Below are positions 35,164-55,812 of a stretch of 64,000 nucleotides of DNA, one piece after another. The stretch's first letter is position 1. Each line of letters opens with the position of its first letter. Source of the DNA: Comamonadaceae bacterium (GTDB taxonomy: Bacteria; Pseudomonadota; Gammaproteobacteria; Burkholderiales; Burkholderiaceae_C). The stretch is from positions 5,901-69,900 of the forward strand of contig CANJWZ010000017.1 of NCBI GenBank assembly GCA_947478725.1, read 5' to 3'. The translations under genes and the position numbers were made by a program. The notes under the pieces were generated by a model. It saw only the letters and a program-made list of their open reading frames with translations, did not search any database and was not told the DNA's origin.

Positions 35164-36156
35164 TCAATTTTTAGCCAACTCAAGCGCCGGCCCATAAAAC
35201 AATTCCTCGGCGTTCACCCTGCGGGGCGATATGCCTTGCTCGTGGTGGTAGCGTGTGAAGGTGTCAAGAACGTGCTTGTTTTCGGCAAAGCCGTAGCTCC
35301 AGTAATCCTCGCCCATCAGGCGTTGGGTCACCTCCAGCTCGGCCACGCTCCATGGCAAGGTCACTGCAAGATGGCCAATCTGTTTGAGCTCTTCGGTTGC
35401 CAGTTTTTTGGCCTCAAGAAAGCCTTTGTAGATGCTCACAGGCAGCCACGGATGCTTGTCAACCAGGCTTTGACGGATGCCCACAACATGCATGGTCGGA
35501 AAAATCCGCGTCTTTGAAAAGTAATCCTGCTCGGCTTGTCTGAAGTCGGGAAAAAGCCGAACCACGTTGGGGTTGCCGTTCAAGAAACACGAGGGTGCCT
35601 TCGCGCCAAACACGGCATCGAGCTCGCCGCTTTCGAGTAACTGCGACAAGGTGGCATCACCGGGGATTTGCTCAACCTCAATGCCTTCAGGCAAGGTGAT
35701 GGGCGAGCGCTCCTGGCGGCCGGGTTGCTCCAGGCCGCCGCGACGCCAGCGTATGTCTTCAGGCCGCACGCCGTACTCATCAAGCAGCATGCCGCGTATC
35801 CACACATTGGCGGTGATCTGGTATTCAGGAATGCCGACCTTTTTGCCTTTCAGGTCTGACGGGCTACGGATGCCGCGGTCAGCGCGAACGTAAATGCCAG
35901 AGTGACGAAACGCGCGCGATAAAAACGCCGGAACCGCTACATACTTGGCTGTGGAGCGGGCAATATTGAGGGTGTGGCTGCTCAAGGACATTTCGCAAAC
36001 ATCGAATTCTTGGCCGCGAAAGACGCGGTGAAAAATCTCTTCAGGTTCCAGCGCAAAGGGAATCAGCGAACAGCCTTCCATCCTGACCCGTCCATCAAAA
36101 ATACCTTTGGTTCTGTCGTAGTTGCAGCAGCCAAGGCTGAGTTCAAGTGTCTTCAT
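35164..36156 (-). CDS. 4,5-dihydroxyphthalate decarboxylase-like protein (periplasmic-binding-protein fold)
   Basis: YDRT, EEIFHR, FDVCEMSLSS, FRHSGIY, FPTMHVV, YHHEQG. Confidence 0.75.
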   Translation of the reverse strand: MKTLELSLGCCNYDRTKGIFDGRVRMEGCSLIPFALEPEEIFHRVFRGQEFDVCEMSLSSHTLNIARSTAKYVAVPAFLSRAFRHSGIYVRADRGIRSPSDLKGKKVGIPEYQITANVWIRGMLLDEYGVRPEDIRWRRGGLEQPGRQERSPITLPEGIEVEQIPGDATLSQLLESGELDAVFGAKAPSCFLNGNPNVVRLFPDFRQAEQDYFSKTRIFPTMHVVGIRQSLVDKHPWLPVSIYKGFLEAKKLATEELKQIGHLAVTLPWSVAELEVTQRLMGEDYWSYGFAENKHVLDTFTRYHHEQGISPRRVNAEELFYGPALELAKN

Positions 36157-36270
36157 ATCTTCTTTTAAACGTCACGGTTGTTAATCTGCATAGTTGTTTT
36201 GTCAATCATCCCGTGGGGTGGAAGTTTTAAACACAGCCTGGCTAGCACGCAAGGCGCATGCCACAAAGCA

Positions 36271-36536
36271 TCACGTCTTTAACGCGTCGAATGCGCCAGC
36301 GATTTTAGACCCAGCCAAGCTGCAGGCCGCCAAATCCCCAGCCGTCAACCAGCGCCACTGCCCGGCCTTCAAATCCGCTGGTAAATCAAGCGAGCCAATC
36401 CGCGAGCGGTGCAAGCCACCAACGCCGCCCTCGCCTTCAACCCGGTTCCCCACCGCTGCAATCATGCGTTTGACCTGGTGGTATTTGCCTTCTGTCAGCG
36501 TCAGGCTCAATTGGTTGGGGCCAGTTTGAACGCAGG
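36271..36536 (-). pseudogene. Displaced 3' end of rsuA (direct-repeat copy)
   Basis: 36326-36536 matches 43229-43439 at 199 of 211 nt; continues to a different C-terminus (CSLAGSKIAGAFDALKT*). Confidence 0.92.
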
Positions 36537-37083
36537 TTGAGAGTGAATTGGAATCTGACCCCGATTCTTGTCATCGAGCATTCAGTGTTTGACTGGGGAT
36601 TGGCCTTGTTCTGCCCATCAAAAGCAGTAGAAACCGTTTTTTGCCTGTCTTCAACTATGTTTTAGGCCTTCAATCCAAGAGATATCCTCACGACCAGCTC
36701 CCGAATCAATAGCAGCCAACAATGAATTGGAATCTGACTAGACTTGTTTCAAATTGTTTTTATACTAGTGAAAGCTTTTCGGCACCGCTTTGCAAGATTC
36801 CGGCACTTGTTGAAACTTACCAAGCTGGCCGACTTTAGTTAAGCGTAGGGAAAAGCTTTCCATCGGCACCGTCTGCCAGATTGGGAGTTGACTGAGCTCC
36901 GCAACCCAAAGCGAGTAAAAAATACTTTTTTGCGTTTTTAATATGCTTTTGGCCTGTAACCAAATAGATACCAGATTGCAACGCTTCTTTATTGATAGCT
37001 AATCTGATTTTTTGACCTAACAATTGGAATAATTAGCTATGGCCTCGCTAATTGAAGGATTTCAAATTCGTTGTTTCTTCGTG

Positions 37084-37190
37084 CAAAGAGAATCGCCCGA
37101 TGAGCGAGCTCATCGGGCGATCGGTTATGGCACTTGGTTAGTGCTTAGTTGCCAAGACAAATTTAGTTGCCAGCGGCTTACTTGATAGAA
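37084..37190 (-). ncRNA. Predicted tracrRNA
   Basis: Anti-repeat TCTATCAAGTAAGCCGCTGGCA pairs with repeat positions 13-34 and GTCTTGG-C-AAC with positions 1-10; then TAAG, a GCACT/AGTGC hairpin, and a perfect 14-bp terminator stem at 37092-37121. Confidence 0.85.
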
Positions 37191-37195
37191 ACAGG

Positions 37196-37223
37196 ATGTT
37201 ACCACATGAAAAGTAAAAATCAA
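37196..37223 (-). promoter_or_regulatory. Putative tracrRNA promoter overlapping the cas9 start
   Basis: Minus strand TTGATT-16-TAACAT with an extended TG; predicted +1 near 37189-37190, the anti-repeat start. Confidence 0.55.
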
Positions 37224-40200
37224 ACTTCATACCGCTTGGGTATAGATATTGGTACGGGTTCAGTTGCATGGGCAGCTATGGCATTGGATGAAAAAAATCA
37301 GCCAACCCGCCTGATGGCCAGTGGCACGACGATCTTCGGCGAGCCAGTTCTTCCCAAAGAAATGAAGCTCAAAAACGAAGAGCGTCGTCGCGCGCGGCTC
37401 ATGAGAAGGCAGACAGAGCGCAAGCGGGAACGTATATCCAAAATCATGCACTTGGCTGCTGCGCTGCAAGTCACACCTGAAAAATTAGCCTCTGCTCTGC
37501 TTGCACACAAAGAAACGCAAACCCTTTGGCAACTACGCGTTAAAGCTTTGGATAACCGGGTATCGCTCGAAGAGTTTTTTCTAATCGTATTGCGACTGGC
37601 AAAGAACCGCGGTTACAACGGTGACGCCCCAAAACCTAACCAAAAAGGAGATCTTGGAAAAGTGGGCCAAGGTCTCGAAGCAACTAAAAAATTAGTTGAA
37701 AGTCTCAAGACTACACAAGAAATCCGTACTGTCTCCGAAGCAATATGGCTCAGCCAGGCGATGTTGCCGCTAAACCAGAAGAAGTTTCGCAAGCGGGTTG
37801 AAACTGGCACCTACGTCCTGCGGAGTGACATCAAAAATGAATTTGATCTCATACTAAAGGAGCAGTTAAAACATCACGACATGTTGGGCAAGCCTTTGGA
37901 TTTAATTTATCCCCCGCGAAAAGAATCATCCATAAAAACTGCGGATGGCAGGCCAAATCCGCACCCGGGCACACGATATTTCTGGGGGCACACGCCCGAA
38001 ACGATTGGCGAGGCCGTCAAAGTGGCCGTGTTCTACCAAAAGCCGCTGCAACCCTTCAAAGACAAAATTGGAACTTGTACTCTTGATAAAACCAGCTTGC
38101 GCGTGGTGGCGGCGCACCCAGCACATCAAGCATTCAGAATCGAAAAGTTATTGGCCGATCTGCGCTGGGGTGACTCAAAAAGCACAGATCGACTGACATC
38201 AGATCAAAAAAACTTCTTGCGAGAAAAACTCGAATTAACCGAAAACGCTAGCTTTTCAGCAATCTACAAGGAACTCGATAAAGCGGGTCTGATGCAGCCA
38301 GATGGATTGATTCTGAATTTTCATACGCCAAGACGCGACCATTTGAGAGGCAATACAACTCGCGCGCGCTTACGGGGCCTGAAACTCCTTGAAGCGTTTG
38401 AGTTACTGACTTTGCAGGAACAAAGCGACGTATTTCTTGCTCTTGCAGATGATGTGAATTCACCAGAAACCTGGCGGCACGACGGTGCACGAGATTTTGT
38501 CGTTTCAGAATATGGTGCGGCTGTCGCTAGTTTTATAGACTTTATTGCAGATTCAAAAGACGGTCTTGACCGCTTGCGCGCCATGGCTTTTGATGCAGGT
38601 CGCGTTAGTTATGGCGCACCCGCATTGGTGGCGCTAACCAAAGCTATGAGGGATGAAAATATTGATGAGCATTCAGCCATCAACAAGCTGTATCCGCATC
38701 ATCATAAAAAGCAAAATGCGACAGGCTACTTGGCGGAAGTTTCGACACTAGAACTGCGCTCGCCGGTAGTTGAGCACGCACTGCTCTACACGCGCCGCGA
38801 ACTGATGGCGGCTGTGAAGCGTCTTGGCCCACCGCAATCAATGGTAATCGAGCTGGCCAAGGAGGTTAAATCAACGCTGGAGCAGCGAGACAAAACGACA
38901 AGCAAGCAGCGGTATGAGGAGAGTCAAAACAAAAAAGCCAGAGAAGCCATTCTGGATGCGAATTGTAAAATTACCAACACCAGCATACTGCGGTACAAGT
39001 TGTGGAAAGAGCAAGCTGAACACTGCCCGTACAGCGGCAAAAGGATAGGCTCGGTTGCTGACGCAGTAAGCGGCACAAACTACGACATAGAGCACATCGT
39101 CCCCAAAAGACTCCACGGTGTTGGCAATCGTTTCGAAGAAATCGTACTCGCTTCGAAACAATTCAACACCCTAAAAGCTGGTCATGAAACGCCTTATTTA
39201 GCATCCAAGCGGGTTGGGAATACCGTGTGGAACTGGGCAGATACAGAACAGGCTTTGAAGTTTATTGAAAAAGAAAACAAACAGTTCATCAAAAAGGCCA
39301 AGCTCATCCGCGACAAGACTGAATTCAGAGTTGACGAGTTGGATGACGACGCCTTTGTAGACCGCCAACTGCAAGAGACGCAGTGGATTGGCCGGATTGT
39401 GCAAAACTGGTGTTCGCAACTTTGTAACGATGTAACGGTGGTACGCGGTGGCCTGACGGCAGAATTGCGCCGAGACTGGGGCTTCCATACTGTGCTTGAA
39501 CAGGTGCGCATCGCCGAGGGCAGGCACGGCAGTGAGAAAGCAAAAACGCTTTTCTATAAACCCAACCGTGTTGGTGAGTTGATATTTGACAAACGCTCAG
39601 ATCACAGACACCACCTGATTGACGCATGCGTCATTGCACTGTCTACAAGGCAAAACTACACAGATGCGGTGAAAGCCAGAAATGCCCGCGCTGCTGGCCG
39701 CAAAGCTAGTTATGCAGCCCCTGAATGCCCTATCCCCAGTTTGCGCGAACATCTGGTCAAGATGCTGAATGGCTACTGCGTATGGCATGCACCAGATCAC
39801 AAAGTGGCAGGTTTGATGTTTGATCAAATGCCATTCGGACTTGGTAAAGATGGCCAATCATTGTTCAAAAACAACACCAAAACCAGCAACAAGTTCAATC
39901 CCAAAATTGACAAGCTTATTGCCCATACAGATCGCCACGGCCGAAAACATCAGAAAGCTGTTTTAAAAAGCGAAGCTGCTTGTTTTCGCGTGACCGCAGC
40001 AGATGGAATTGAATCGGTAAATATTGCCCAGTTTATGCAAACGTACATGAGTGATGGGGTTCTCTACGTTCCAAGAAATGAGCGCCTGATATTCAAAGGC
40101 GATCTTTTAATCTTTAAAGATGAAGCCCAGGTTTACAAAGTCGCACAATTGAAAGAAGGTGAAGGTGTTTGCGCTGTACATGCTGTCGAAACTGCAACAT

Positions 40201-40328
40201 TTGACGATTTAAAAACAACTGGTCTGAACAGAAGATTTAGCAGGGTAAAAGACCTGCTTGAAGCGCTCGTTGTTTGTCACCCAATTGAACTCGCCATTCA
40301 CGCTAAAGCGCACAAACAGGCTCGATGA
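37206..40328 (+). CDS. cas9: Type II-C Cas9, 1040 aa
   Basis: RuvC-I LGIDIG, Arg-rich bridge helix, KNRGY, RuvC-II VIELAKE, HNH DIEHIVP...FNTLK, RuvC-III HRHHLIDA; followed by cas1 and cas2 only. Confidence 0.95.
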   Translation: MKSKNQTSYRLGIDIGTGSVAWAAMALDEKNQPTRLMASGTTIFGEPVLPKEMKLKNEERRRARLMRRQTERKRERISKIMHLAAALQVTPEKLASALLAHKETQTLWQLRVKALDNRVSLEEFFLIVLRLAKNRGYNGDAPKPNQKGDLGKVGQGLEATKKLVESLKTTQEIRTVSEAIWLSQAMLPLNQKKFRKRVETGTYVLRSDIKNEFDLILKEQLKHHDMLGKPLDLIYPPRKESSIKTADGRPNPHPGTRYFWGHTPETIGEAVKVAVFYQKPLQPFKDKIGTCTLDKTSLRVVAAHPAHQAFRIEKLLADLRWGDSKSTDRLTSDQKNFLREKLELTENASFSAIYKELDKAGLMQPDGLILNFHTPRRDHLRGNTTRARLRGLKLLEAFELLTLQEQSDVFLALADDVNSPETWRHDGARDFVVSEYGAAVASFIDFIADSKDGLDRLRAMAFDAGRVSYGAPALVALTKAMRDENIDEHSAINKLYPHHHKKQNATGYLAEVSTLELRSPVVEHALLYTRRELMAAVKRLGPPQSMVIELAKEVKSTLEQRDKTTSKQRYEESQNKKAREAILDANCKITNTSILRYKLWKEQAEHCPYSGKRIGSVADAVSGTNYDIEHIVPKRLHGVGNRFEEIVLASKQFNTLKAGHETPYLASKRVGNTVWNWADTEQALKFIEKENKQFIKKAKLIRDKTEFRVDELDDDAFVDRQLQETQWIGRIVQNWCSQLCNDVTVVRGGLTAELRRDWGFHTVLEQVRIAEGRHGSEKAKTLFYKPNRVGELIFDKRSDHRHHLIDACVIALSTRQNYTDAVKARNARAAGRKASYAAPECPIPSLREHLVKMLNGYCVWHAPDHKVAGLMFDQMPFGLGKDGQSLFKNNTKTSNKFNPKIDKLIAHTDRHGRKHQKAVLKSEAACFRVTAADGIESVNIAQFMQTYMSDGVLYVPRNERLIFKGDLLIFKDEAQVYKVAQLKEGEGVCAVHAVETATFDDLKTTGLNRRFSRVKDLLEALVVCHPIELAIHAKAHKQAR

Positions 40329-41245
40329 GGACTGAGCGCGTCATCGCCATTGAAAATCCCTGCCGCTTAAGCATTGATACAGCACGACTAAAAATAGATC
40401 GGGAAGGTAGCAGCACTTTTGTAGCAATCGTGGACATGGCGGTACTGGTCATTGATACCGTACAGATTGAGCTGACTGCCGGCGTCCTACGCGAACTGGC
40501 GCAATCGGATGTCGCAGTCATCGTTACTGATTCACGTCACTATCCGGTTGCGCTGGTTGCACCAGTCAAAGCACATACGCACACAGTCCGACGTCAACGC
40601 CTGCAAGCGGCACTTTCCCAAACGTTTGCAGACGTAATGTGGGCCACCACTATTCGCGCAAAGTTAAGAAATCAGGCGCGATTTTTATCAGCCCAAGGTA
40701 CAACTGCGCCGCTTGCCCGCCTAGAACGCATGGCAGCGACCATTGCGCCAGGTGACCCTGAAAATTTTGAGGCGCAAGGCGCAAAGCTTTATTGGAAAGA
40801 TGTTTTCAAAGACAGCTTCAAAAGAGCAAAGCAGGATGCGCCCGACACACGCAACGCAGCTCTGAACTTTGGTTATGCCATCTTGCGCGGACTGTTCAGC
40901 CGGTATATCGCCATCGCTGGTCTGTCACCCGTATTTGGGTTTGGGCATAGCAATTTTGAGAACCCTTGCTGTTTGGTCGATGACTTGATTGAGCCCTTTC
41001 GCCCATGCGTTGATGCGCTGGTAGCAACCGCTATCTATATCGAAAATGAATTCGATTCCAAGGCCAAGAAAACAATGCTCAGACTATTGGAATGCGAGGC
41101 GTTGTTTGAGCGTAAAGATGTGCAGGTTCGCTACAGAATGCACGCGGCAGTATCTGAAACCGTAAACGCTTATGTCAGAGCGCTGGAGACGCAATGTGAA
41201 AACGCAATGGCTTTCCCAAGCGGTTTCGTCCTCCCACTTGGCTGA
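40325..41245 (+). CDS. cas1: Type II Cas1
   Basis: ENFEAQGAKLYW, RNAALNFGYAILR, GH...LVDDLIEPFRP; ATGA overlap with cas9. Confidence 0.95.
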   Translation: MRTERVIAIENPCRLSIDTARLKIDREGSSTFVAIVDMAVLVIDTVQIELTAGVLRELAQSDVAVIVTDSRHYPVALVAPVKAHTHTVRRQRLQAALSQTFADVMWATTIRAKLRNQARFLSAQGTTAPLARLERMAATIAPGDPENFEAQGAKLYWKDVFKDSFKRAKQDAPDTRNAALNFGYAILRGLFSRYIAIAGLSPVFGFGHSNFENPCCLVDDLIEPFRPCVDALVATAIYIENEFDSKAKKTMLRLLECEALFERKDVQVRYRMHAAVSETVNAYVRALETQCENAMAFPSGFVLPLG

Positions 41246-41291
41246 TAACGGCGAGAACGATGGCTACGACCCTGGTCCATTTTTCCGCACC

Positions 41292-41603
41292 ATGTGGCTA
41301 ATCTGCGCTTTCGATTTGCCAACCGACAGCAAGCTTGCGCGTCGCAGATACACGCAATATCGAAAACTATTATTGACCCACGGATTTGATCATTTGCAGC
41401 ACTCGGTGTATTGCAGGCACTTCCCTAATTTTGAACAAGCCCGAAATATGGCAACGCGCATGGGTACAGCAACACCGGAAGACGGAAAGGTTGATTTTTT
41501 GTTTTTGACAGACAAGCAACTAGGTCTTACGCTAAGTTTTCTTGGCCCCAAGGCACGTGATGAACCCTTATTTGAAGAGCCCGAGCAGGGTGCCTTGTTC
41601 TAA
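41292..41603 (+). CDS. cas2: Cas2
   Basis: MWLICAFDLP, GFDHLQHSVY; an in-frame TTG at 41238 is an alternative start. Confidence 0.9.
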   Translation: MWLICAFDLPTDSKLARRRYTQYRKLLLTHGFDHLQHSVYCRHFPNFEQARNMATRMGTATPEDGKVDFLFLTDKQLGLTLSFLGPKARDEPLFEEPEQGALF

Positions 41604-41608
41604 TACGG

Positions 41609-41646
41609 AAACTAAAATCCCCGCTAAATCAACGACTTAGCGGGGA
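41609..41646 (-). terminator. Terminator for the minus-strand array transcript, within the leader
   Basis: Perfect 10-bp stem TCCCCGCTAA/TTAGCGGGGA; followed by TTTTAGTTT on the minus strand. Confidence 0.7.
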
Positions 41647-41649
41647 CAT

Positions 41650-43073
41650 AGTCTATCAAGTAAGCCGCCGACAGAGCCTTGGAACAATGGTCTTGAGGTG
41701 AAGGTCACGCCTGTCAGTCTATCAAGTAAGCCGCCGACAGAGCCTTGGAACGGCAGAGGGTGTTCATGCCACACCTCCAATAGTCTATCAAGTAAGCCGC
41801 CGACAGAGCCTTGGAACGGTAAAGGGTGTTCATGCTGCACCTCCAATAGTCTATCAAGTAAGCCGCCGACAGAGCCTTGGAACTCCTCCTCCTGCAACAA
41901 CTAGATAGTCAACAGTCTATCAAGTAAGCCGCCGACAGAGCCTTGGAACGGCAAGTACGATGTGGTGGCAACCACTGGCAGTCTATCAAGTAAGCCGCCG
42001 ACAGAGCCTTGGAACAGCAATCTTTAACCCAGCCACGTTTGCCGGAGTCTATCAAGTAAGCCGCCGACAGAGCCTTGGAACCAGTGGAAAAGAGATGCTC
42101 TCCCTGACCTACAGTCTATCAAGTAAGCCGCCGACAGAGCCTTGGAACAACGCGAGGGCGATGTAGGCACTTACCACTAGTCTATCAAGTAAGCCGCCGA
42201 CAGAGCCTTGGAACACCGGGCGCAGCGGGTTGTCTCATGGTTCAAGTCTATCAAGTAAGCCGCCGACAGAGCCTTGGAACAAGTTCCTCTTGCGAGAATG
42301 TCTTGCTTGGAGTCTATCAAGTAAGCCGCCGACAGAGCCTTGGAACGTGTTGGGTGCCAGGTCCGCCGTGGTGGCTAGTCTATCAAGTAAGCCGCCGACA
42401 GAGCCTTGGAACCTGGCGCGTGACATTGACAAAAACGCGACCAGTCTATCAAGTAAGCCGCCGACAGAGCCTTGGAACCTGCGTCAATGGCGTAGCGCAC
42501 GTCACCAAAAGTCTATCAAGTAAGCCGCCGACAGAGCCTTGGAACCCGTGGTGGGCGAGCTGGTCTGACTTCAAGAGTCTATCAAGTAAGCCGCCGACAG
42601 AGCCTTGGAACAATAGCTGGAAATGGCGGTGCAGGACTTACAGTCTATCAAGTAAGCCGCCGACAGAGCCTTGGAACGAGGGCTTCACGGTGGGGTCAGA
42701 GTGATTGAGTCTATCAAGTAAGCCGCCGACAGAGCCTTGGAACTTTGTGAGCTTTTTTGACCAGCTTGAACTCAGTCTATCAAGTAAGCCGCCGACAGAG
42801 CCTTGGAACAGGGCGGGCGGGCTTTGGGTGAGCAGCGCAAGTCTATCAAGTAAGCCGCCGACAGAGCCTTGGAACGGCGGCGACGGTGACGATGTGGCCT
42901 TTTCGAGTCTATCAAGTAAGCCGCCGACAGAGCCTTGGAACTGACATGCACGTCTCCTTTCCTAGCGCCCAAGTCTATCAAGTAAGCCGCCGACAGAGCC
43001 TTGGAACATCGCTGGCATAGCGCCGTCACTGGGCGAGAGTCTATCAAGTAAGCCGCCGACAGAGCCTTGGAAC
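41650..43073 (-). CRISPR. CRISPR array, 22 identical 36-bp repeats and 21 spacers (30 nt; two of 31 nt)
   Basis: Repeat on + is AGTCTATCAAGTAAGCCGCCGACAGAGCCTTGGAAC; crRNA sense is GTTCCAAGGCTCTGTCGGCGGCTTACTTGATAGACT. Orientation inferred from the 5' GTT, the anti-repeat and the terminator. Confidence 0.98.
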
Positions 43074-43206
43074 AGTGACTTCAAACGTATGCGTCCGGCT
43101 ACCACACATTGCGGGAATGCTGACATCCAGAGATAGTGTGAGCGATAAACATCATGCACACCATGGCGAGCGAGACTCGCACCACCCAAGCCCCAAAACG
43201 TCAGTT

Positions 43207-43953
43207 CTACTTCCCAGAGCCCGCAATAGCCGCCAAATCCCCACCCGTCAACCAGCGCCACTGCCCGGCCTTCAAATCCGCTGGTAAATCAAGCGAGCCT
43301 ATCCGCGAACGGTGCAAGCCTCCCACGCCGCCTTCGCCTTCAACGCGATTGCCAACCGCTGCAATCATGCGTTTGACCTGGTGGTATTTGCCTTCTGTCA
43401 GCGTCAGGGTCAATTGGTTGGGGCCAGTTTGCACGCAGGCTGCGGCTTTGACGGGCTTGGGGTCGTCGTCCAGCACCACGCCGCTCAGCAGTTTTTGCAC
43501 CTGCTTGTCGTCTACCGCGTGCTTGGCCGTGACCTCGTACACCTTGGGCACATGGTGTTTGGGTGAGCTCATGCGGTGGATGAACTTGCCGTCGTCTGAC
43601 AGCAGCAGCAGGCCTGTGGTGTCCTGGTCGAGCCGCCCAACCGCTTGCACGCCCGCTGCAGCGCCGCCGCCGCGCTGGCGAATGGGCGCGGGCAACAAGG
43701 TGTAGATGCTCGGGTAGGTGCTGGGCTTTTGCGAGCATTCGTAGCCTGCGGGTTTGTGCAGCATCAAATAGGCTTTTTCGTGGTACTGCCAGTCAACGCC
43801 CTGCACTTTGAAGTTCAGGCCCGCTGCCGCAAAATCAGCCGTTGGGTCATCGACCACCACGCCCGCCACCACCACCAGGCCTTGCTGCACCAGCCCCGAG
43901 CAAACGCGCCGCGTGCCAAAGCCTTGAGAAAAAAGAATGTCTTGAAGTTGCAT
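43207..43953 (-). CDS. rsuA: 16S rRNA pseudouridine synthase, RsuA family
   Basis: S4 domain, LHKPAGY, VGRLDQDTTGLLL, TEGKYHQVKRM. Confidence 0.92.
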   Translation of the reverse strand: MQLQDILFSQGFGTRRVCSGLVQQGLVVVAGVVVDDPTADFAAAGLNFKVQGVDWQYHEKAYLMLHKPAGYECSQKPSTYPSIYTLLPAPIRQRGGGAAAGVQAVGRLDQDTTGLLLLSDDGKFIHRMSSPKHHVPKVYEVTAKHAVDDKQVQKLLSGVVLDDDPKPVKAAACVQTGPNQLTLTLTEGKYHQVKRMIAAVGNRVEGEGGVGGLHRSRIGSLDLPADLKAGQWRWLTGGDLAAIAGSGK

Positions 43954-44024
43954 GGCCGATATTGTCGCCGCACGCTAACCGGCGCAAAGCGTGAAAATAG
44001 CGCTTCTCGCATCACAAAGATTTC

Positions 44025-47392: not shown

Positions 47393-47513
47393 ATATTTTC
47401 TTTTGCTTTAAAACATACCCGCAGATGTATCGAGCAGGACAACCCCTCTTTGGCCAAAGTGCCTTAAGCACCCACCAAAAACATTGCGACGGGAATTCTC
47501 GTTACAAAATTTC

Positions 47514-49091
47514 TCATTCAAACAAACTGGCGAGATTTAATCGGTTTACCTTTCGAGAGGCAGTTTGTGGAATTTCATCCATAGTTATGAAGCGTATCGC
47601 CTGCGGAACTTTGTATGCAGCAAGCTGCGATCTGCAATGAAGAATTAACTCATCTTGATCTAGGCTGGCCCCTTCTTCTAGAACAATAACAGCTGCTACG
47701 ACTTGCTCCCGAATCGGATCAGGAAGGCCCGTCACGAAAGCCTCGCGGACCGCAGGATGTTTTAACAAGACCTCTTCCACTTCAATGGGTGAAACATTAA
47801 TACCCCCCGTCTTCAACATTTCTTTATATCTACCCATAAACACCAGGTAGCCCTCAGCGTCAATTTTTCCTATATCCCCTGTTTTGAAGAAGCCATCCTC
47901 ATCAAAGGAATTAATGGTGCCGACAGGATCCTTGTAATAGCCTTTCATGATTCGGCCGCGCAAGCGAATTTCGCCTATCTCCCCAGGACTAAGGATTTTG
48001 CCGCTTTCTGGCGAGGTGATACGTAACTCAAATCCCGGCATGAGCCGACCATCAGTACTCGCTCGTTTTTCCAAAGTATCCATTGCATCGTGCATTGCGG
48101 CGAAGCCGTGACTCTCGGTCAGGCCATATATTCGTACGCCAAGGGGCATCACCGTTTGCATAAGCTCCAAGCTGACTGCTGGCGCACCAAGCGGAGTACC
48201 TTTGCGTATTGAGGTCAAGTCATAACGATAGCATTCAGGATGTTGAAAAATCGCATGAATGATATTTGCAGTACCCGCAAAAACTGTGCATCGATAGGAC
48301 TGAATCAAATTAAGGCCTTCTATGGCATCAAAGTGTTCCTGTAAAACGATGTGCATTCCATGAGTCCAAGGGCCCAAGAGCATGTTCATGCAACCCATAC
48401 CCCAGAAGAGCGACAAAGGCATGTAGCAGACATCATCTTCATTGAAGTGCAAGCGCACACCTATATCAAACATGTTACCGATCAGGTGTTTGTGAATAAG
48501 CATGACACCCTTAGGACGAGAAGTTGATCCAGAGGTGTACAAAAGATAGGCGACATCTTCGCCAGTAACTTCGTGGTGTAGCTTAAGGATTACATCGTCT
48601 GACACGCTTTTGCCGGACGATAAAAAGGTTTCATAAATTAGGGCATCCTGTGCAGACCGTTTTCCGAGGGTAACAACTTTACGTAATAGTGGAACTGAAT
48701 TCGAATGCGGCTGCATGGCGTCCAGCATCGCTGTGAAGTCGATATTCAGAAAACCATCAGCGCAAAATAGAATGCTCACATCAGATTGGACAAGGACATA
48801 CTCGAGTTCGGTCTTTGTATACCAGGTATTGAGACCTACCATCGTCGCACCTAGGTATTGAGTAGCAAAATTTATTACGAGCCACTCGATACAATTGACC
48901 ATCAGAATGCCGACTTTGTCCCCTCGTCTGACACCCTGAGAATGAAGTGCTTTGGCACAATCAATGGTTAACCGTCTAAACTCCCAAAAAGTCACAGTTC
49001 GACCCTTGAAAGAAACGGCTGCTCGCTTTGGATAACGTTCTGCCATTTCTTCAATTAAAGCAGACAGTGTTTGACTCAAAGGTTCTCTCAT
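47514..49091 (-). CDS. AMP-binding acyl-CoA synthetase
   Basis: YTSGSTSRPKG, YGLTE, KTGD, GRYKEMLKTGGINV, YKVP; TAATG coupling with the upstream gene. Confidence 0.92.
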   Translation of the reverse strand: MREPLSQTLSALIEEMAERYPKRAAVSFKGRTVTFWEFRRLTIDCAKALHSQGVRRGDKVGILMVNCIEWLVINFATQYLGATMVGLNTWYTKTELEYVLVQSDVSILFCADGFLNIDFTAMLDAMQPHSNSVPLLRKVVTLGKRSAQDALIYETFLSSGKSVSDDVILKLHHEVTGEDVAYLLYTSGSTSRPKGVMLIHKHLIGNMFDIGVRLHFNEDDVCYMPLSLFWGMGCMNMLLGPWTHGMHIVLQEHFDAIEGLNLIQSYRCTVFAGTANIIHAIFQHPECYRYDLTSIRKGTPLGAPAVSLELMQTVMPLGVRIYGLTESHGFAAMHDAMDTLEKRASTDGRLMPGFELRITSPESGKILSPGEIGEIRLRGRIMKGYYKDPVGTINSFDEDGFFKTGDIGKIDAEGYLVFMGRYKEMLKTGGINVSPIEVEEVLLKHPAVREAFVTGLPDPIREQVVAAVIVLEEGASLDQDELILHCRSQLAAYKVPQAIRFITMDEIPQTASRKVNRLNLASLFE

Positions 49092-49996
49092 TATTGATTT
49101 CCTTTGCTGCACTGAGCTTTCCAACGAAAGAGTCGGCGAGCGCTTCCACCCAGGACCCAGTCGCGGTCGCTTGGCGATAAAAATGCGTTGTCTTGCACGA
49201 AAGCAAGAAGCTCAGGCCAGGTGGCATCGGACTCTTCATGGCTTGCGTCACTTGCCCAAAGTACTCTGTCTGGGCCAAACGCACCAACTGCACGTAAAAA
49301 CTCTCGATTTTGAGATTCTGATGAGTCTGAAAATCGCCTGAAAGAACGACTCGCGTGACTCCATTTGAGCCAAACATTAGGAAAACGCGCAAGGCCAAGC
49401 ACTAACTGCCACTGTTCAAAATTTCGAGGTAAACCGCAATGGTCTACGACGAACTGAAGACCAACATATTTTTTTGCTACGTATGAAACAAAATCACCAG
49501 CATCTCGCGTGTAGATGCATACAGGAAATTCGTGGAGCTGTGCTAGTTGAAGAACGTTGTCCCAGTCTCCGGTGGTGAATCGATTTCGCTCGTCATCATT
49601 TAATAGGGTTATTCGAATAGCGCGACAACTTGGTGTACTCGCTAGAATCGCGAGCAATTCAGCCAGTTGTGGGTCTAGCCGGTTGACACGCTGCATAAAG
49701 GAAAATCTGTCCGGGTACTGCAGCGAGGCAGCAAGTGCGAGCGCACTTTGGGGTCGGTAACTGCCATTTCTTAATATGACATGCGGTTGCGGAATACCGT
49801 TTTCATCAAAGCCCCAAAGCTCGTCCAGTAATGCGCTGCGTATTCCCAAGCTATCCATAGCCGCTATCAAAAACCCCACATCTTGCTCAATAGAAATGTG
49901 GAGTTGGGCATCCAAGATATTTTGGCCTTCCTGCCCGCCCAATCCTGGCAGCCGTTTAAACTTATTTACCAACTCCATTTGCTCAAAACGCGTCAT
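49091..49996 (-). CDS. Amidohydrolase_2-family protein
   Basis: LDAQLH, VVDHCG, NVWLKWS, FGPDRVLWASD. Confidence 0.8.
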   Translation of the reverse strand: MTRFEQMELVNKFKRLPGLGGQEGQNILDAQLHISIEQDVGFLIAAMDSLGIRSALLDELWGFDENGIPQPHVILRNGSYRPQSALALAASLQYPDRFSFMQRVNRLDPQLAELLAILASTPSCRAIRITLLNDDERNRFTTGDWDNVLQLAQLHEFPVCIYTRDAGDFVSYVAKKYVGLQFVVDHCGLPRNFEQWQLVLGLARFPNVWLKWSHASRSFRRFSDSSESQNREFLRAVGAFGPDRVLWASDASHEESDATWPELLAFVQDNAFLSPSDRDWVLGGSARRLFRWKAQCSKGNQ

Positions 49997-50042
49997 GCTG
50001 CCAGCCAGTCACTAACTCTTCCGTGTTAAAGGCTTTTGAATT

Positions 50043-51026
50043 TCAATCCATTGAAATCCGGCCAGAACGCAAAAGCGCGGTAAAGCGCTCATCCTCACGT
50101 TTCAAGACTTCAGATGCATGCTGTGGGGTTGAAGGTGGTGCAATCGTAATACCGCCAAGAGCCTTGAATCTAGAACCGAACGATTCGCGGGCTATAACCG
50201 TATTTACCGCATTGTTTATATTGCTAACAATATCCGGAGGCGTTCCTTTTGGAGCAGTAACCAAATAATGAATTGGGGCCTCAAATCCTTTTAAGCCCTC
50301 TTCGTCCATCGTCGGAATTTCCGGGTAGGAGGGATCGCGTTTAAGACCTGCTGCTCCGAGGACCTTCAACTTTCCAGCCTTTGCGAATTGAATGGCGCTC
50401 ATCGGAAGAAAACTATAAGTCACTTCGCCGCTTGTCACATCTGGAATAATCATTTGGAATGACTTGTACGGAACATGGACCGACTGCGTCTGAGCCATGT
50501 AATTGAACATTTCAAGGTACATATGCATTGGCGTGCCAACACCAGCGGATGCATACATATACTTTCCCGGGCTAGTCTTTAAGAGAGCAATAAAGTCACG
50601 TAGATTTGCTACGGGGAGGGAATTAGACACACACATCACGGTCGTAATCCAGAGGATGTGCGAAACAGCAGCAAAATCCGTATTTCCATTAAAACCTTGC
50701 GCTTTTAGCAAGCTAGGTGCGATAACGTTCGGCATGGCACTGATCATCAAAGTGTATCCATTTGGGGCGGCACGCGCTAATAAACTGCTGGCTACTATCT
50801 GACTTGCAGATGGACGATTTTCTACGATGACCGGTTGCATAAAGATTGGCGACAGTTCGTCAGCCAAGGCTCTAGCGACGAGATCGGCAACAGTTCCTGG
50901 GGGTAGCGGTACGATAATTGTGATGGGGCGACTTGGGAAGCTTTGAGCGCTCGCAAGGCCATTTGACATTAAGGTAAAAATCGCTAACACCCAAAACAGC
51001 AATCCCCGTTTGACTTTTCCGGACAT
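50043..51026 (-). CDS. Bug/TctC-family solute receptor
   Basis: FPSRPITIIVPLPPG, VENRP, YASAGVGTPMH. Confidence 0.88.
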   Translation of the reverse strand: MSGKVKRGLLFWVLAIFTLMSNGLASAQSFPSRPITIIVPLPPGTVADLVARALADELSPIFMQPVIVENRPSASQIVASSLLARAAPNGYTLMISAMPNVIAPSLLKAQGFNGNTDFAAVSHILWITTVMCVSNSLPVANLRDFIALLKTSPGKYMYASAGVGTPMHMYLEMFNYMAQTQSVHVPYKSFQMIIPDVTSGEVTYSFLPMSAIQFAKAGKLKVLGAAGLKRDPSYPEIPTMDEEGLKGFEAPIHYLVTAPKGTPPDIVSNINNAVNTVIARESFGSRFKALGGITIAPPSTPQHASEVLKREDERFTALLRSGRISMD

Positions 51027-51150
51027 AATTTCCTCCTTTGTTGCACTACAGTAAATGTTGATTAGCAGTACGAGATAAATTTACTTTAAGTCAAGGCACG
51101 CTTGTGTTGGGTTATGGTTGCCATCAGGAAAGGTAATGGGTGCAATTTTT

Positions 51151-52101
51151 ATGGGCTATGAGATAGATTTGACGGATCTTCGAGTGGTGGTCGCGATTGC
51201 TACTCATGGCAGCTATACCCGCGCAGCGCAAAAGTTGGGGGTTTCTCAACCGGCTGTGAGCCGGCGAGTAACATCAATTGAGCAAATGCTTCATGTGAGG
51301 TTGTTCAGAAGTGAGGGCCGAAATTTAGTTCTATCTGAGGCAGGGCTCGCTTTTTGCGATCAAGCTAAGGAGGTTCTTCAATTGATGAAGGAACTTCCAT
51401 TGTCTACTGCAAATTTGTCTCATAACCCAAGCGGAACAGTTGCACTGGGGTTGCCTCCCACTACCGGTGAGCTACTAGCTCCAAAGCTCCTACCGGAATA
51501 CCGATTGGCCTACCCTGACGTATTTGTTCGTCTGGAGCAAGGTTATGTCAACGACCTATTTGAAATGCTGATTGACAAGAGAATTGATGTCGCGCTGCTG
51601 ACGGGGAACTTCAGTTCAGTATCTATCGACATTGAGCCACTCTATGATCACCACATTGGCATTGTCTATCCACTTGCTTGGAGAGAAAAATCTCCGCTGG
51701 ATGGGGGACCGATGCCGAGCAAACTTACTCTATCTGAAGCCGCTCGCCTTCCATTAATACTACAGAGCCCCAACCAAAATACGCGCCAGATAATTGATGC
51801 GGCGTTCAGAGCCGGCGGACTCAAACCCAATGTAGTGATGGAAGTAAATAGCTTCATTCTTCAAAAAAGTCTGGTGATGCCTGAGATCGGCTGTATGTTC
51901 ATGTCAAGAGCAGCTGTTACACAGGCTGACCGCTCCAGGCTAGGGTTCGCTCCCATATCAGACGCACCAATGATTTATTCAGTTTCTATAGCAACCAGGA
52001 AAACTGGCCAGCCTACCCTTGCGGCAAAGTTGATGATTCAAATGATAAAACGGCATATGGTGCAGGTATCCAAATATTACGAGCAGCTTGTGGTTGGCTG
52101 A
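51151..52101 (+). CDS. LysR-family regulator
   Basis: HTH GSYTRAAQKLGVSQPAVSRRV; start could be 51136; divergent from the Bug gene. Confidence 0.92.
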   Translation: MGYEIDLTDLRVVVAIATHGSYTRAAQKLGVSQPAVSRRVTSIEQMLHVRLFRSEGRNLVLSEAGLAFCDQAKEVLQLMKELPLSTANLSHNPSGTVALGLPPTTGELLAPKLLPEYRLAYPDVFVRLEQGYVNDLFEMLIDKRIDVALLTGNFSSVSIDIEPLYDHHIGIVYPLAWREKSPLDGGPMPSKLTLSEAARLPLILQSPNQNTRQIIDAAFRAGGLKPNVVMEVNSFILQKSLVMPEIGCMFMSRAAVTQADRSRLGFAPISDAPMIYSVSIATRKTGQPTLAAKLMIQMIKRHMVQVSKYYEQLVVG

Positions 52102-52111
52102 TACGCGTGCC

Positions 52112-52128
52112 TGCATTACCGCAATGCA
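52112..52128. promoter_or_regulatory. Palindromic LysR-type box upstream of the OB-fold/thiolase operon
   Basis: TGCATT-ACCGC-AATGCA, contains T-N11-A. Confidence 0.45.
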
Positions 52129-52229
52129 TGCCAGATATAAACATCAACGCAGCTTATTGGTAATAAAGTTCTCCTGAATGATAGAGTTTTGTCCAACAGA
52201 ATTTCGAATTGGACCAAGGAGAGCTTTAA

Positions 52230-52661
52230 ATGACTGCCACCCCAACACTGCAAAGTGGACTTTTCAAATTTGGAGCCGATGGACTACCACACCTGCTCGC
52301 CAATTTTTGTAGCCAATGTGACTTAGTCTTTTTTCCAAGCCGCGTTTTCTGCGGGCGTTGCAGTTCATCAGAGCTGACAAGTCTGAATCTATCCCGTTTT
52401 GGCAAAGTTCATAGCTTCAGCTTTATTGATCGAAAACCGACTTACGCCGTGATCGATGCACCCTACATTCAGGCAGAGGTAAAAATGCCAGAAGGAGTCA
52501 GTGTTTTTACTGTACTTGACCATTGTTCGTTAAATGATGTTTTCGTCGGACTTGAGGTGGAAATCTATGTGGATGAAGTGAATTCACCCAAAAGTCAGGG
52601 CAAAGTGCTGGCTTACAAATTCAGACCTGCCTCGGTTCATTCAACTGAGGAGGTCAAATGA
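52230..52661 (+). CDS. Zn-ribbon/OB-fold (DUF35/ChsH2-like) protein
   Basis: CSQC...CGRC zinc ribbon, then an OB fold; ATGA overlap with the thiolase. Confidence 0.88.
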   Translation: MTATPTLQSGLFKFGADGLPHLLANFCSQCDLVFFPSRVFCGRCSSSELTSLNLSRFGKVHSFSFIDRKPTYAVIDAPYIQAEVKMPEGVSVFTVLDHCSLNDVFVGLEVEIYVDEVNSPKSQGKVLAYKFRPASVHSTEEVK

Positions 52662-53824: not shown

Positions 53825-53828
53825 GTAA

Positions 53829-54641
53829 ATGAATTTGAATCTTCAAGGCAAGAACGCCTTGGTCACAGGAGCTGGACAAGGGGTTGGCAGACGTATAGCA
53901 ATGGAGTTGGCTGGTGAAGGATGCAATGTAATTGTGAACGACTTATTCCAGGACCGAGCCAATAATGTGGCGCAAGAAATACTTGAATCAGGATACGTTG
54001 CTCTTGCATTGCAAACCGACATTTGCGACCCTATCCAGGTTGCCTCAATGTTTGCCAAGTCTCGCGATGCCTTTGGGCCAATCGACATCCTGATAAACAA
54101 TGCAGGTGTTCCACCACAAATCCGGGATGGAACCGCCGGGCGGCCAATGTTCATCAGCAGCACAGTTCTAGAGCAACAAGAGATGGTTAATCTTAATGTG
54201 CACGGAACCATGCACTGCTGCAGAGAAGCGCTACCTGACATGGTAGCGAGGCGCAACGGCAGGATTGTTAATATTATTTCTGAAGCGGGACGTGCTGGTG
54301 AGCCAAGGCTAGCGATCTATTCGGGCGCAAAGGCGGCGATCCTAGGATTCTCGATGGCGCTCGCGCGAGAACTTGGTCCTGAAGCAATCACCGTGAACTG
54401 TATTGCCTTAGGGGCAACAGAGCATGAAGGAATTAAAAGTGGCCCGCTCAATCCCTCCGCTGGGCCAGAGTTCGACGAGCAACGCGCTAAGATTTTTAAA
54501 TCGTATCCAGCTGCGCAGGGTTTAGGTCGACTCTGTAGTCCAGAAGATGTTTCTGCTGCAGTAGCATTCTTGGTTTCGTCGCGGGCGGCCTTCATCACAG
54601 GTCAGAGTCTTGGTGTCAGCGGCGGTTTTCATATGCAGTAA
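53829..54641 (+). CDS. Short-chain dehydrogenase/reductase
   Basis: TGAGQGVG, NNAG, YSGAK. Confidence 0.92.
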   Translation: MNLNLQGKNALVTGAGQGVGRRIAMELAGEGCNVIVNDLFQDRANNVAQEILESGYVALALQTDICDPIQVASMFAKSRDAFGPIDILINNAGVPPQIRDGTAGRPMFISSTVLEQQEMVNLNVHGTMHCCREALPDMVARRNGRIVNIISEAGRAGEPRLAIYSGAKAAILGFSMALARELGPEAITVNCIALGATEHEGIKSGPLNPSAGPEFDEQRAKIFKSYPAAQGLGRLCSPEDVSAAVAFLVSSRAAFITGQSLGVSGGFHMQ

Positions 54642-54648
54642 GCGGTTT

Positions 54649-55644: not shown

Positions 55645-55812
55645 GTCATCTCCATGAATGAGTCTAAGTCACTCAACTTTAGTACGACGTTGACTACTCA
55701 GCAAGCATCACCAAGTTATAACTATCATCAATCACGGACATGTTGATATCAAATTTTTATTGTGAGCTGCCCACCCTGCCGTACCCAAACGATGGAACAA
55801 GGCCTGCTTGTT

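What the first reader, a model, noticed from the sequence alone, without database searches (positions are those of the whole stretch)
37206..40328. Compact, divergent type II-C Cas9 with short C-terminal domains
Seen: 1040 aa with RuvC D/E/H/D and HNH H and N residues in place. The usual NKVL asparagine of HNH reads EIVL here. There is an apparent insertion in the REC lobe (LIYPPRKESSIKTADGRPNPHPGTRYFW), and only about 200 aa follow RuvC-III. Identical repeats and intact cas1/cas2 suggest an active system. Inference: a small ortholog whose PAM cannot be read from this window, possibly useful as an editing enzyme.
Basis: partly seen in the sequence, partly recalled or inferred. Interest (0 to 1): 0.68.

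Follow-up and report, generated by a model that had tools for sequence, protein, structure and literature searches.

The report
New clade of type II-C Cas9
This is a real and apparently working CRISPR-Cas9 immune system of a freshwater Polaromonas-like bacterium, whose 1040-residue Cas9 belongs to a small uncharacterised branch of the known type II-C family; it is useful as one more editing-enzyme candidate but works in the ordinary way.

Summary
The ORF 37206-40328 (+) encodes a 1040-aa Cas9 (TIGR01865 354 bits, cutoff 100). All six catalytic residues are invariant across relatives. It is followed by type II cas1 and cas2 and by 22 identical 36-nt repeats.

The EIVL substitution, the REC insertion and the short C-terminus are not lesions. 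They are shared signatures of a clade of about 29 metagenomic proteins (42-89% identity), mostly from Polaromonas and other Burkholderiales genomes assembled from metagenomes. The next relatives are about 25% identical.

It lies on the minus strand at about 37197-37083, divergent from cas9, and compensatory changes support it. The array is therefore read on the minus strand.

Six cas-proximal spacers match phage contigs, five of them in the same lakes. All six share a 3' flank of 5'-NNYGC-3'.

The enzyme is not unusually compact: SaCas9 is 1053 aa and CjCas9 984 aa, lengths quoted from memory. The C-terminal 215 aa has no sequence relative and no convincing fold relative among solved structures. 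No trace of this Cas9 was found in the literature searched.

Verdict: a new member of a known kind, of moderate interest.

The parts
37083..37197 (-). tracrRNA gene; both ends are approximate. It comprises an anti-repeat (37189-37148), a nexus stem-loop (37144-37130), and a 14-bp terminator hairpin (37122-37091) with a U-rich tail. A TAACAT -10-like box lies just upstream, inside the first codons of cas9.
   Evidence: The anti-repeat is complementary to the repeat. It is conserved in 5 related loci, with compensatory changes in the duplex, nexus and terminator. Cofolding with the repeat gives -81.5 kcal/mol: 22 bp, an internal loop, then 10 bp. The terminator scan finds the hairpin. Rfam has no match.
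37206..40328 (+). cas9, 1040 aa. Domains: RuvC-I about residues 1-55 (D14); Arg-rich bridge helix 56-86; REC lobe about 87-505; RuvC-II (E549); HNH about 600-665 (H630, N654); RuvC-III 714-829 (H803, D806); C-terminal module 830-1040.
   Evidence: TIGR01865 at 353.8 bits. Pfam RuvC_III, Cas9_a and HNH_4. PADLOC Cas9. AF2 model pLDDT 80; the best Foldseek hits are Nme1Cas9, AceCas9 and ThermoCas9.
37902..37985 (+). Clade-specific REC-lobe insertion, residues 233-260. The N-terminal part varies; it ends in a conserved G-T-x-Y-F-W-G motif.
   Evidence: 45-64 residues between Q220 and Q278 in the clade, against 21-22 in 11/12 outgroup proteins. Length and sequence vary within the clade. Low pLDDT.
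39084..39194 (+). HNH core, residues 627-663: DIEH(630)IVP ... GN(641)RFEE(645)IVL ... FN(654)TLKAGHETP.
   Evidence: H630 and N654 are invariant. Position 645 is E/D/G in the clade and N in the outgroup; position 641 is N in the clade and D in the outgroup. The beta-beta-alpha elements are predicted at 626-630, 646-650 and 651-656.
39693..40325 (+). C-terminal module, residues 830-1040. It starts with a conserved C841-P842...L846-R847 segment, followed by a beta-rich putative PAM-interacting domain and a terminal helix.
   Evidence: No Pfam or PDB sequence match, even with the E-value limit raised to 10. The AF2 model has pLDDT 77. The best Foldseek hits are only E 0.01 and TM 0.28, to Cas9d and SaCas9. 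The profile finds 44 representatives among 1.84 billion.
40325..41245 (+). cas1 (type II), 306 aa; overlaps the cas9 stop codon.
   Evidence: TIGR03639 at 236 bits against a cutoff of 120. PADLOC Cas1_II at 277 bits.
41196..41603 (+). cas2 (type II), 135 aa. An alternative ATG at 41172 would give 143 aa.
   Evidence: PF09827 and TIGR01573. PADLOC Cas2_II at 102 bits. The gene call in the public contig is 135 aa.
41617..41647 (-). 14-bp hairpin followed by TTTAGTTT on the minus strand, between the array and cas2. It is the likely terminator of minus-strand array transcripts.
   Evidence: Terminator scan.
41650..43074 (-). CRISPR array of 22 identical 36-nt repeats and 21 spacers of 30-31 nt. 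The repeat in crRNA sense is GUUCCAAGGCUCUGUCGGCGGCUUACUUGAUAGACU. Its 3' end, TGATAGACT, fits an extended -10 box (TGnTAnnnT).
   Evidence: Strand assignment rests on the tracrRNA strand, the placement of mismatches and the side of the PAM. New spacers are added at the cas2-proximal end: all protospacer matches fall in spacers 4-10, and the degenerate repeat is at the distal end in L005.
36326..36539 (.). Left copy of a 214-nt direct repeat. It is a detached 3'-end fragment of the pseudouridine synthase gene and marks the left edge of the low-GC CRISPR-Cas island.
   Evidence: 94% identical to 43229-43442. GC is 0.48-0.49 inside the island and 0.55-0.63 outside.
43229..43442 (.). Right copy of the 214-nt direct repeat. 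It is the 3' end of the intact pseudouridine synthase gene at 43207-43953 (-).

Best explanation
The locus is a complete, functional type II-C CRISPR-Cas9 adaptive immune system. It sits on a low-GC island of about 6.7 kb in a freshwater Polaromonas-like betaproteobacterium.

**Proposed mechanism**
1. The array is transcribed on the minus strand. This follows from the tracrRNA strand and the protospacer evidence. Transcription probably starts at an extended -10 box inside each repeat, as in Neisseria and Campylobacter II-C systems; that step is inferred.
2. The transcript ends at the hairpin at 41647-41617 (inferred from the terminator scan).
3. The tracrRNA is transcribed divergently from just inside the cas9 start. 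It pairs with the repeat in two helices of 22 bp and 10 bp separated by an internal loop. It also carries a nexus stem-loop and a terminator hairpin. These features are shown by complementarity and covariation.
4. Cas9 loads the duplex and uses roughly the 24 repeat-proximal nucleotides of the spacer as guide. This is inferred from where the mismatches lie.
5. Cas9 recognises a 3' PAM of about 5'-NNYGC-3' through a short, sequence-orphan C-terminal domain. The PAM is inferred from six natural protospacers.
6. Cas9 cuts both strands with HNH (H630, N654) and RuvC (D14, E549, H803, D806). The residues are shown to be present; cleavage itself is inferred.
7. Cas1 and Cas2 add spacers at the cas2-proximal end (inferred from spacer polarity).

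The Cas9 belongs to a distinct, uncharacterised II-C clade. The clade is defined by a REC insertion, a D/N to N/acid swap in HNH, and a C-terminus 35-150 aa shorter than in its nearest relatives.
For: **Family and architecture:**

**Catalytic residues:** invariant over 37 sequences.

**Clade and its signatures:**

**tracrRNA:**
- It is conserved in 5 loci. Compensatory changes occur in the duplex (crRNA GUCGGCGGC with tracr GCCGCUGGC in the window; GUUGACGGC with GCCGUUGGC in L004 and L005), in the nexus and in the terminator.
- Cofolding with the repeat gives -81.5 kcal/mol.
- A terminator lies downstream of the array on the minus strand.

**Natural targeting:**
- Spacers 41884, 41950, 42149 and 42281 match one IMG/VR phage family. 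One match is 30/30; shuffled spacers give 0 hits.
- In the same lake metagenomes, contigs that run on into non-array sequence carry protospacers for 41884, 41950, 42016, 42149 and 42215; short contigs also match 42281 but lack a PAM-side flank. Several reach 40-160x depth, against 3-8x for the host.
- The targets lie in phage portal and scaffold genes.

**PAM:** YGC occupies positions 3-5 of the 3' flank in 6/6 protospacers. The background frequency of YGC in these phages is 0.043, giving P about 6e-9, or about 2e-7 after correcting for offsets and sides. For 41950 and 42281, whose PAM-proximal 24 nt match perfectly, mismatches sit in the 5' six nucleotides of the guide.

**Polarity of adaptation:** no protospacers were found for the distal half of the array.
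Against: - No RNA data exist for this organism. The transcription start sites, the repeat-internal promoters and the length of the mature crRNA are therefore inferred.
- Cleavage has not been tested.
- The Pfam HNH_4 match only just reaches its cutoff (22.0 against 22). The canonical structural Asn is missing in the whole clade.
- The PAM rests on six protospacers. One IMG/VR variant of the 42149 target has GCCTCG instead.
- The C-terminal model is of moderate confidence and has no convincing structural homologue. The mode of PAM reading is therefore unknown.
Confidence: 0.8

Rival explanations
1. The Cas9 binds its target but has an impaired HNH domain. It would then act as a nickase, or as a binder only, because the clade lacks the canonical Asn of the HNH motif and has Glu in place of the Asp next to the catalytic His.
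For: Position 645 is E/D/G in 25/25 clade members against N in 12/12 outgroup proteins. Position 629 is E in the clade against mostly D in the outgroup. The Pfam HNH_4 score sits exactly at its cutoff.
Against: The general base H630 and the metal ligand N654 are invariant, and Glu629 keeps the carboxylate. The beta-beta-alpha fold is predicted. The change is paired with D-to-N at position 641, which looks compensatory. The clade is conserved, keeps its RuvC residues, and carries spacers against co-occurring phages. None of this fits a disabled effector.
Confidence: 0.1
2. The locus is a recently acquired but silent or decaying cassette, so the spacer matches reflect past activity in a donor.
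For: The island has foreign GC content and is flanked by a duplicated gene end. Island-free relatives appear more abundant in one run. There are no expression data.
Against: All three genes are intact, with full-length family matches. All 22 repeats are identical. The matched phages are abundant in the same samples as the host. Matches are confined to the leader-proximal spacers, which indicates recent acquisition.
Confidence: 0.06
3. The enzyme, or a relative more than 80% identical, has already been characterised (for example in a patent or an ortholog screen), so nothing here is new.
For: Thousands of Cas9 orthologs have been mined, and the tools here cannot search patents or most supplementary sequence files.
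Against: No solved structure gives more than a partial sequence match (E 4.5e-33 or weaker). The repeat and signature peptides are absent from 8.3 million full texts. They are also absent from the supplements of three large surveys. Database members carry only automatic names.
Confidence: 0.04

Closest known systems
Neisseria meningitidis Nme1Cas9 (type II-C; PDB 6JDQ, 6KC8, 6JE4)
   Same: It is the best structural match of the full-length model (Foldseek E 7e-30 to 3e-28, TM up to 0.54). Both have the same domain order, similar size (1082 aa), a cas9-cas1-cas2 locus, 36-nt repeats and 30-nt spacers. In both, the repeat's 3' end resembles an extended -10 box; the Neisseria part of this comparison is from memory of Zhang et al. 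2013.
   Different: Structure-based identity is only 16-17%. The PAM here is NNYGC, not N4GATT. The C-terminus is about 100 aa shorter. The REC insertion and the HNH D/N swap are absent from Nme1Cas9-like proteins. The tracrRNA lies upstream of and divergent from cas9.
GeoCas9 / ThermoCas9 (type II-C; PDB 8JTJ, 8UZA, 9AR4)
   Same: These are the best sequence matches among solved structures (E 4.5e-33). They align over RuvC-I and the bridge helix, and over RuvC-II, HNH and RuvC-III.
   Different: The alignments are partial. The query has about 32 more residues between query positions 223 and 284. It has no alignable C-terminal domain.
Sister group of 1100-1360-aa metagenomic Cas9s (for example P0067, 1240 aa)
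   Same: 27% identity over 966 residues. They share the KRSDHRHH RuvC-III motif, the WHxPD segment, and a distantly homologous C-terminal core.
   Different: They carry about 170 extra residues between the equivalents of residues 874 and 897, which the window's clade lacks. They are uncharacterised as well.
Campylobacter jejuni CjCas9 (type II-C, 984 aa)
   Same: From memory, not tested here: it is a small II-C enzyme with a small WED/PI module, and its crRNAs start from promoters inside the repeats.
   Different: Sequence similarity is very weak (E 1.4e-7, N-terminus only). Its PAM differs (N3VRYAC, from memory).

Membership tests
Cas9 (TIGR01865 cas_Csn1) | Whole-protein profile score above the curated cutoff | tested here: met
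   353.8 bits against a cutoff of 100, covering residues 9-909.
Cas9 (TIGR01865 cas_Csn1) | Split RuvC domain (motifs I, II, III) with D/E/H/D, and an inserted HNH domain with a catalytic His and a metal-binding Asn | tested here: met
   D14, E549, H803, D806, H630 and N654 are invariant in alignments A1 and A2.
Cas9 (TIGR01865 cas_Csn1) | Arginine-rich bridge helix and an alpha-helical REC lobe | tested here: met
   Helix 56-86 with invariant R60, R61, R64, R67, R72 and R76. Pfam Cas9_a covers residues 285-496.
Cas9 (TIGR01865 cas_Csn1) | C-terminal PAM-interacting domain related to a known PI or WED fold | tested here: inconclusive
   No sequence match was found. The best fold matches are Cas9d and SaCas9 C-terminal regions, but only at E 0.01-0.4 and TM 0.2-0.28.
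Canonical HNH motif of Cas9 (H...N...N) | Middle structural Asn (SpCas9 N854 equivalent; numbering from memory) | tested here: not met
   E645 in the window; E/D/G in 25/25 clade members against N in 12/12 outgroup proteins. This residue is structural rather than catalytic, a point taken from established knowledge.
Type II-C CRISPR-Cas | Operon of cas9, cas1 and cas2 only, with no csn2 (II-A) and no cas4 (II-B) | tested here: met
   Only three genes lie between 37206 and 41603. No other ORF of 60 aa or more with a family match lies in the island. The related loci share this layout.
Type II-C CRISPR-Cas | tracrRNA with an anti-repeat, and an adjacent CRISPR array | tested here: met
Type II-C CRISPR-Cas (Neisseria/Campylobacter style) | crRNAs start from promoters inside each repeat, independently of processing | not testable with these tools
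   The motif TGnTAnnnT is present at the 3' end of the repeat in the window (TGATAGACT) and in the divergent L006 repeat (TGCTAACCT). No RNA-seq exists for this organism.
Active adaptive immunity | Spacers match mobile elements, with a consistent PAM | tested here: met
   Six protospacers share the 3' flank NNYGC; P about 2e-7.

The most novel reading that the evidence does not exclude
The clade's shortened, sequence-orphan C-terminal module may be a PAM-interacting fold unlike those solved so far. It would read a compact three-base YGC motif at PAM positions 3-5. The paired HNH change (D...N to N...E/D) might also alter cleavage behaviour, for example metal dependence, strand bias or cut position. 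If so, this would be a new structural subclass of II-C Cas9 with practical value as an editor of about 1.04 kaa with a short PAM.
Probability: 0.15. Interest if true: 0.55.

Novelty: new member of a known kind. Interest (0 to 1): 0.4.

Why it matters
- **As an editing candidate.** The work turns a sequence-only hunch into a testable reagent: a defined Cas9 ORF, crRNA orientation, tracrRNA boundaries, an sgRNA architecture and a candidate PAM of NNYGC. At 1040 aa the enzyme is in the size range generally considered to fit AAV vectors. A three-base PAM would be less restrictive than that of most II-C enzymes.
- **Biologically.** It documents a live CRISPR-phage interaction in lake Polaromonas populations. 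Leader-proximal spacers match abundant co-occurring phages.
- **For the family.** A whole Cas9 clade dispenses with the 'conserved' middle Asn of HNH.
- **Limit.** None of this changes how Cas9 is thought to work.

Tried and rejected
- **Rfam** scan of 36000-44000 found no tracrRNA family.
- **blastn of the whole array** against the INPHARED phages and the PLSDB plasmids found no match at E <= 1.
- **Exact-match spacer scans.** Spacers 1, 2/3 (degenerate pattern), 6, 7, 9 and 12 gave nothing in IMG/VR. Spacers 1 and 2/3 gave nothing in the JGI metagenomes.
- **Self-targeting.** No spacer matches the window itself.
- **RNA runs** for this locus: none.
- **Literature.** There is no paper on a Polaromonas Cas9. 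The repeat and peptide strings are absent from the texts and from three supplement sets. The 2026 II-C preprint describes different, Neisseria-like enzymes.
- **Plus-strand crRNA with the PAM on the other side** was considered and rejected.
- **The TTG at 37167 as start codon** was considered and rejected. It lies inside the anti-repeat, and homologues start at the ATG.
- **Empty-site allele.** A search of the metagenome contigs gave one weak, out-of-register joint (36509 to 43460, 21-nt side). I treat this as inconclusive.
Full report
**1. The observation**

The ORF runs from the ATG at 37206 to the stop at 40326-40328 and encodes 1040 aa. An in-frame TTG at 37167 would add 13 residues. It lies inside the anti-repeat, however, and the homologues align from the ATG.

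The protein scores 353.8 bits on NCBIfam TIGR01865 (Cas9), against a cutoff of 100. It hits Pfam RuvC_III (residues 714-829), Cas9_a (285-496) and, just at its cutoff, HNH_4 (607-663). PADLOC also calls it Cas9.

D14, E549, H803 and D806 (RuvC) and H630 and N654 (HNH) are invariant. This holds in a 25-sequence clade alignment and in a 37-sequence alignment that includes relatives about 25% identical.

- **EIVL.** The motif is at residues 645-648. The position that is Asn in 12/12 outgroup Cas9s is E, D or G in 25/25 clade members. Four residues upstream, position 641 changes in the opposite sense: Asn in the clade (24/25) and Asp in the outgroup (10/12). The acid beside the catalytic His is Glu rather than Asp.
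- **REC insertion.** The clade has 45-64 residues between invariant Q220 and Q278, against 21-22 in 11 of 12 outgroup proteins. The region is variable and poorly predicted.
- **Short C-terminus.** After D806 the clade has 231-239 residues, against 269-386 in the outgroup.

Downstream lie a type II cas1 (40325-41245; TIGR03639, 236 bits) and cas2 (41196-41603). The array follows, with 22 identical 36-nt repeats and 21 spacers of 30-31 nt at 41650-43074.

**2. Relatives and host**

A search of 5.8 billion proteins found 29 relatives at 42-100% identity. Identity then drops abruptly to about 25%. Most are unnamed metagenomic proteins.

In the genome collection, the clade occurs only in genomes assembled from metagenomes. 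These are labelled Polaromonas (81-84%), Burkholderiaceae (59%), Betaproteobacteria (41%) and, in one case, 'Cytophagales' (58%). The window's own contig comes from a freshwater metagenome. The locus is present in lake and freshwater sequencing runs.

Among solved structures, the best sequence matches are ThermoCas9, GeoCas9 and Nme1Cas9, at E 1e-33 to 1e-29 and only as partial alignments.

An AlphaFold2 model (pLDDT 80) matches Nme1Cas9, AceCas9, ThermoCas9 and SaCas9 best. The E-values run down to 7e-30, with TM up to 0.54 and 16-17% identity.

It is therefore a bona fide II-C Cas9 on a separate branch.

**3. The C-terminal module**

Residues 826-1040 have no Pfam or PDB sequence match, even with the E-value limit raised to 10. 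No Cas9 profile extends beyond about residue 819, except TIGR01865, which reaches 909.

Modelled alone (pLDDT 77), the module is beta-rich with a terminal helix. The best Foldseek hits are C-terminal regions of Cas9d and SaCas9. They are weak, at E 0.01-0.4 and TM 0.2-0.28.

A profile of this module was searched against 1.84 billion representatives. It found 44 proteins at E <= 1e-3 and 7 at E <= 1e-30. The distant hits are the C-termini of Cas9s of 1100-1360 aa. One of these, P0067, is 27% identical overall. It carries about 170 extra residues between the equivalents of residues 874 and 897.

The clade thus has a pared-down C-terminus. The whole protein is not unusually small, because the REC lobe and the HNH-to-RuvC-III segment are longer.

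**4. The guide RNAs**

The anti-repeat lies on the plus strand as ...GCGGCTTACTTGATAGA... at 37172-37189. The tracrRNA is therefore transcribed on the minus strand, divergently from cas9, and the crRNAs are minus-strand transcripts.

The same arrangement is conserved upstream of cas9 in five related loci. [quoted passage not shown]

Cofolding of repeat and tracrRNA gives -81.5 kcal/mol. The predicted structure has a 22-bp helix, an internal loop and a 10-bp helix. A nexus stem-loop (37144-37130) and a 14-bp terminator (37122-37091) with a U-rich tail follow.

A strong hairpin-plus-T-run on the minus strand at 41647-41617 sits exactly where minus-strand array transcripts would need to stop before cas2.

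In crRNA sense the repeat ends in TGATAGACT. The divergent L006 repeat ends in TGCTAACCT. Both fit TGnTAnnnT, an extended -10 box. From memory, Neisseria and Campylobacter II-C systems use such boxes to start crRNAs inside each repeat. This step is inferred, because no RNA run holds the locus.

**5. Targets, PAM and activity**

The first 24 nt of spacer 41950 hit five IMG/VR contigs. Extending that phage family brought in 80 more loci.

Four window spacers (41884, 41950, 42149, 42281) match this family. Spacer 42281 matches 30/30. Shuffled spacers gave no hits. The targets lie in the portal and head-scaffold genes and in a Gly-rich structural gene.

Laying contigs from the lake metagenomes on the array showed contigs that run on into non-array sequence. 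They carry protospacers for spacers 41884, 41950, 42016, 42149 and 42215. Short contigs also match spacer 42281, but they begin at the protospacer and give no PAM-side flank. Several of these contigs reach 40-160x depth, against 3-8x for the host. None was found for the distal half of the array.

The 3' flanks in crRNA sense are:

| Spacer | 3' flank |
|---|---|
| 41884 | GGCGCT |
| 41950 | CACGCC / GACGCC |
| 42016 | GGCGCG |
| 42149 | GCCGCG |
| 42215 | GGCGCG |
| 42281 | GATGCT / GACGCT |

This gives 5'-NNYGC-3': C preferred over T at position 3, G at position 4 and C at position 5. The opposite flank shows no consensus.

The background frequency of YGC in these phages is 0.043. Six of six therefore has P about 6e-9, or about 2e-7 after correcting for offsets and sides.

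For spacers 41950 and 42281, mismatches fall in the 5' six nucleotides of the 30-nt guide. This fits a mature guide of about 24 nt.

Three observations place acquisition at the cas2-proximal end and indicate recent activity.
- Matches are confined to spacers 4-10.
- Two near-duplicate spacers sit at positions 2-3.
- The degenerate repeat is at the distal end in L005.

**6. Mechanism and rivals**

The best explanation is a canonical, active II-C system (confidence 0.8). Its components and PAM are as described above.

The main rival is a weakened HNH domain, giving a nickase or a binder only. I consider it unlikely, for three reasons:
- the catalytic His and the metal-binding Asn are invariant;
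- the lost Asn is accompanied by a reciprocal change four residues away;
- the clade is under evident purifying selection and in use against phages.

A silent relic and an already-characterised enzyme are each given about 5%.

**7. Novelty**

No trace of the repeat or of signature peptides was found in 8.3 million full texts. None was found in the supplements of three large Cas9 or PAM surveys either. The 2026 preprint on compact II-C enzymes concerns different proteins.

This is a new, uncharacterised clade of a very well known family: a new member of a known kind. Interest is moderate. It offers a defined and testable editor candidate with a short inferred PAM, and a clean natural example of CRISPR-phage interplay. 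It does not offer a new mechanism.

Noticed in passing
window 36326-36539 and 43229-43442: The whole CRISPR-Cas cassette (GC 0.48, against 0.55-0.63 in the flanks) is bracketed by a 214-nt direct repeat at 94% identity. The right copy is the 3' end of an intact pseudouridine synthase gene (43207-43953, -). The left copy is a detached fragment of the same gene end. This looks like the footprint of an island inserted at a gene's 3' end, yet no integrase lies inside it. In run X5 the flanks are 22-26x deep and the island 4-7x, so island-free relatives appear more abundant. One weak joint (36509 to 43460) was seen in X3.
   Followed up: partly
window 36540-37082; 36545-36559 and 36724-36738: About 540 nt with no convincing ORF lie between the left repeat copy and the tracrRNA. 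The stretch contains an exact 15-nt direct repeat, GAATTGGAATCTGAC, that occurs twice (0.14 expected by chance). Its function is unknown; it may be a remnant of the element that moved the cassette.
   Followed up: no
window 41752-41781 and 41818-41847: Spacers 2 and 3 differ at only 4 of 30 positions, so the same phage site was acquired twice from sequence variants. No protospacer for them was found in IMG/VR or in the JGI metagenomes.
   Followed up: partly
L010-L094 (IMG/VR contigs); window spacers 41884, 41950, 42149, 42281: The targeted phage belongs to a very abundant freshwater family: more than 600 IMG/VR contigs encode the head-closure protein used as probe. The protospacers lie in the portal and scaffold genes. 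Some variants carry changes at PAM positions 2 and 4 (GCCTCG for the 42149 target). An 86x contig in run X3 has mismatches 2 and 5 nt from the PAM. These could be CRISPR-escape variants.
   Followed up: partly
window 39126-39140 (Cas9 residues 641-645): A reciprocal swap in the HNH domain. Outgroup Cas9s have D at position 641 and N at 645. The clade has N at 641 and E/D at 645. This suggests that a structural hydrogen-bonding pair was inverted rather than lost.
   Followed up: partly
L002 374-465, 4664-4755, 9756-9847: In a Polaromonas genome assembled from a metagenome, the homologous cassette sits in a different genomic context. It is bracketed by copies of a 92-nt repeat, with a third copy nearby. 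This again suggests that the cas9-cas1-cas2-array unit moves as a module.
   Followed up: no
L005 (metagenome-assembled genome labelled Cytophagales): A 58%-identical Cas9 with an almost identical repeat sits in a genome bin labelled Cytophagales (Bacteroidota), while all other clade members come from Betaproteobacteria. This is either transfer between phyla or a binning error.
   Followed up: no
window 41648 and 41884 in run X5: In a different lake study, the first repeat is preceded by different sequence, and one repeat is followed by 4.4 kb of non-array DNA. Variant arrays or locus contexts therefore exist in related strains.
   Followed up: no
window 47500-55700: A second low-GC stretch (0.47-0.51) is not a defence or phage island. 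It is a catabolic cluster: an AMP-binding ligase, an amidohydrolase, a TctC-family binding protein, a LysR regulator, a thiolase-like protein, a short-chain dehydrogenase and an Ldh_2 dehydrogenase.
   Followed up: partly
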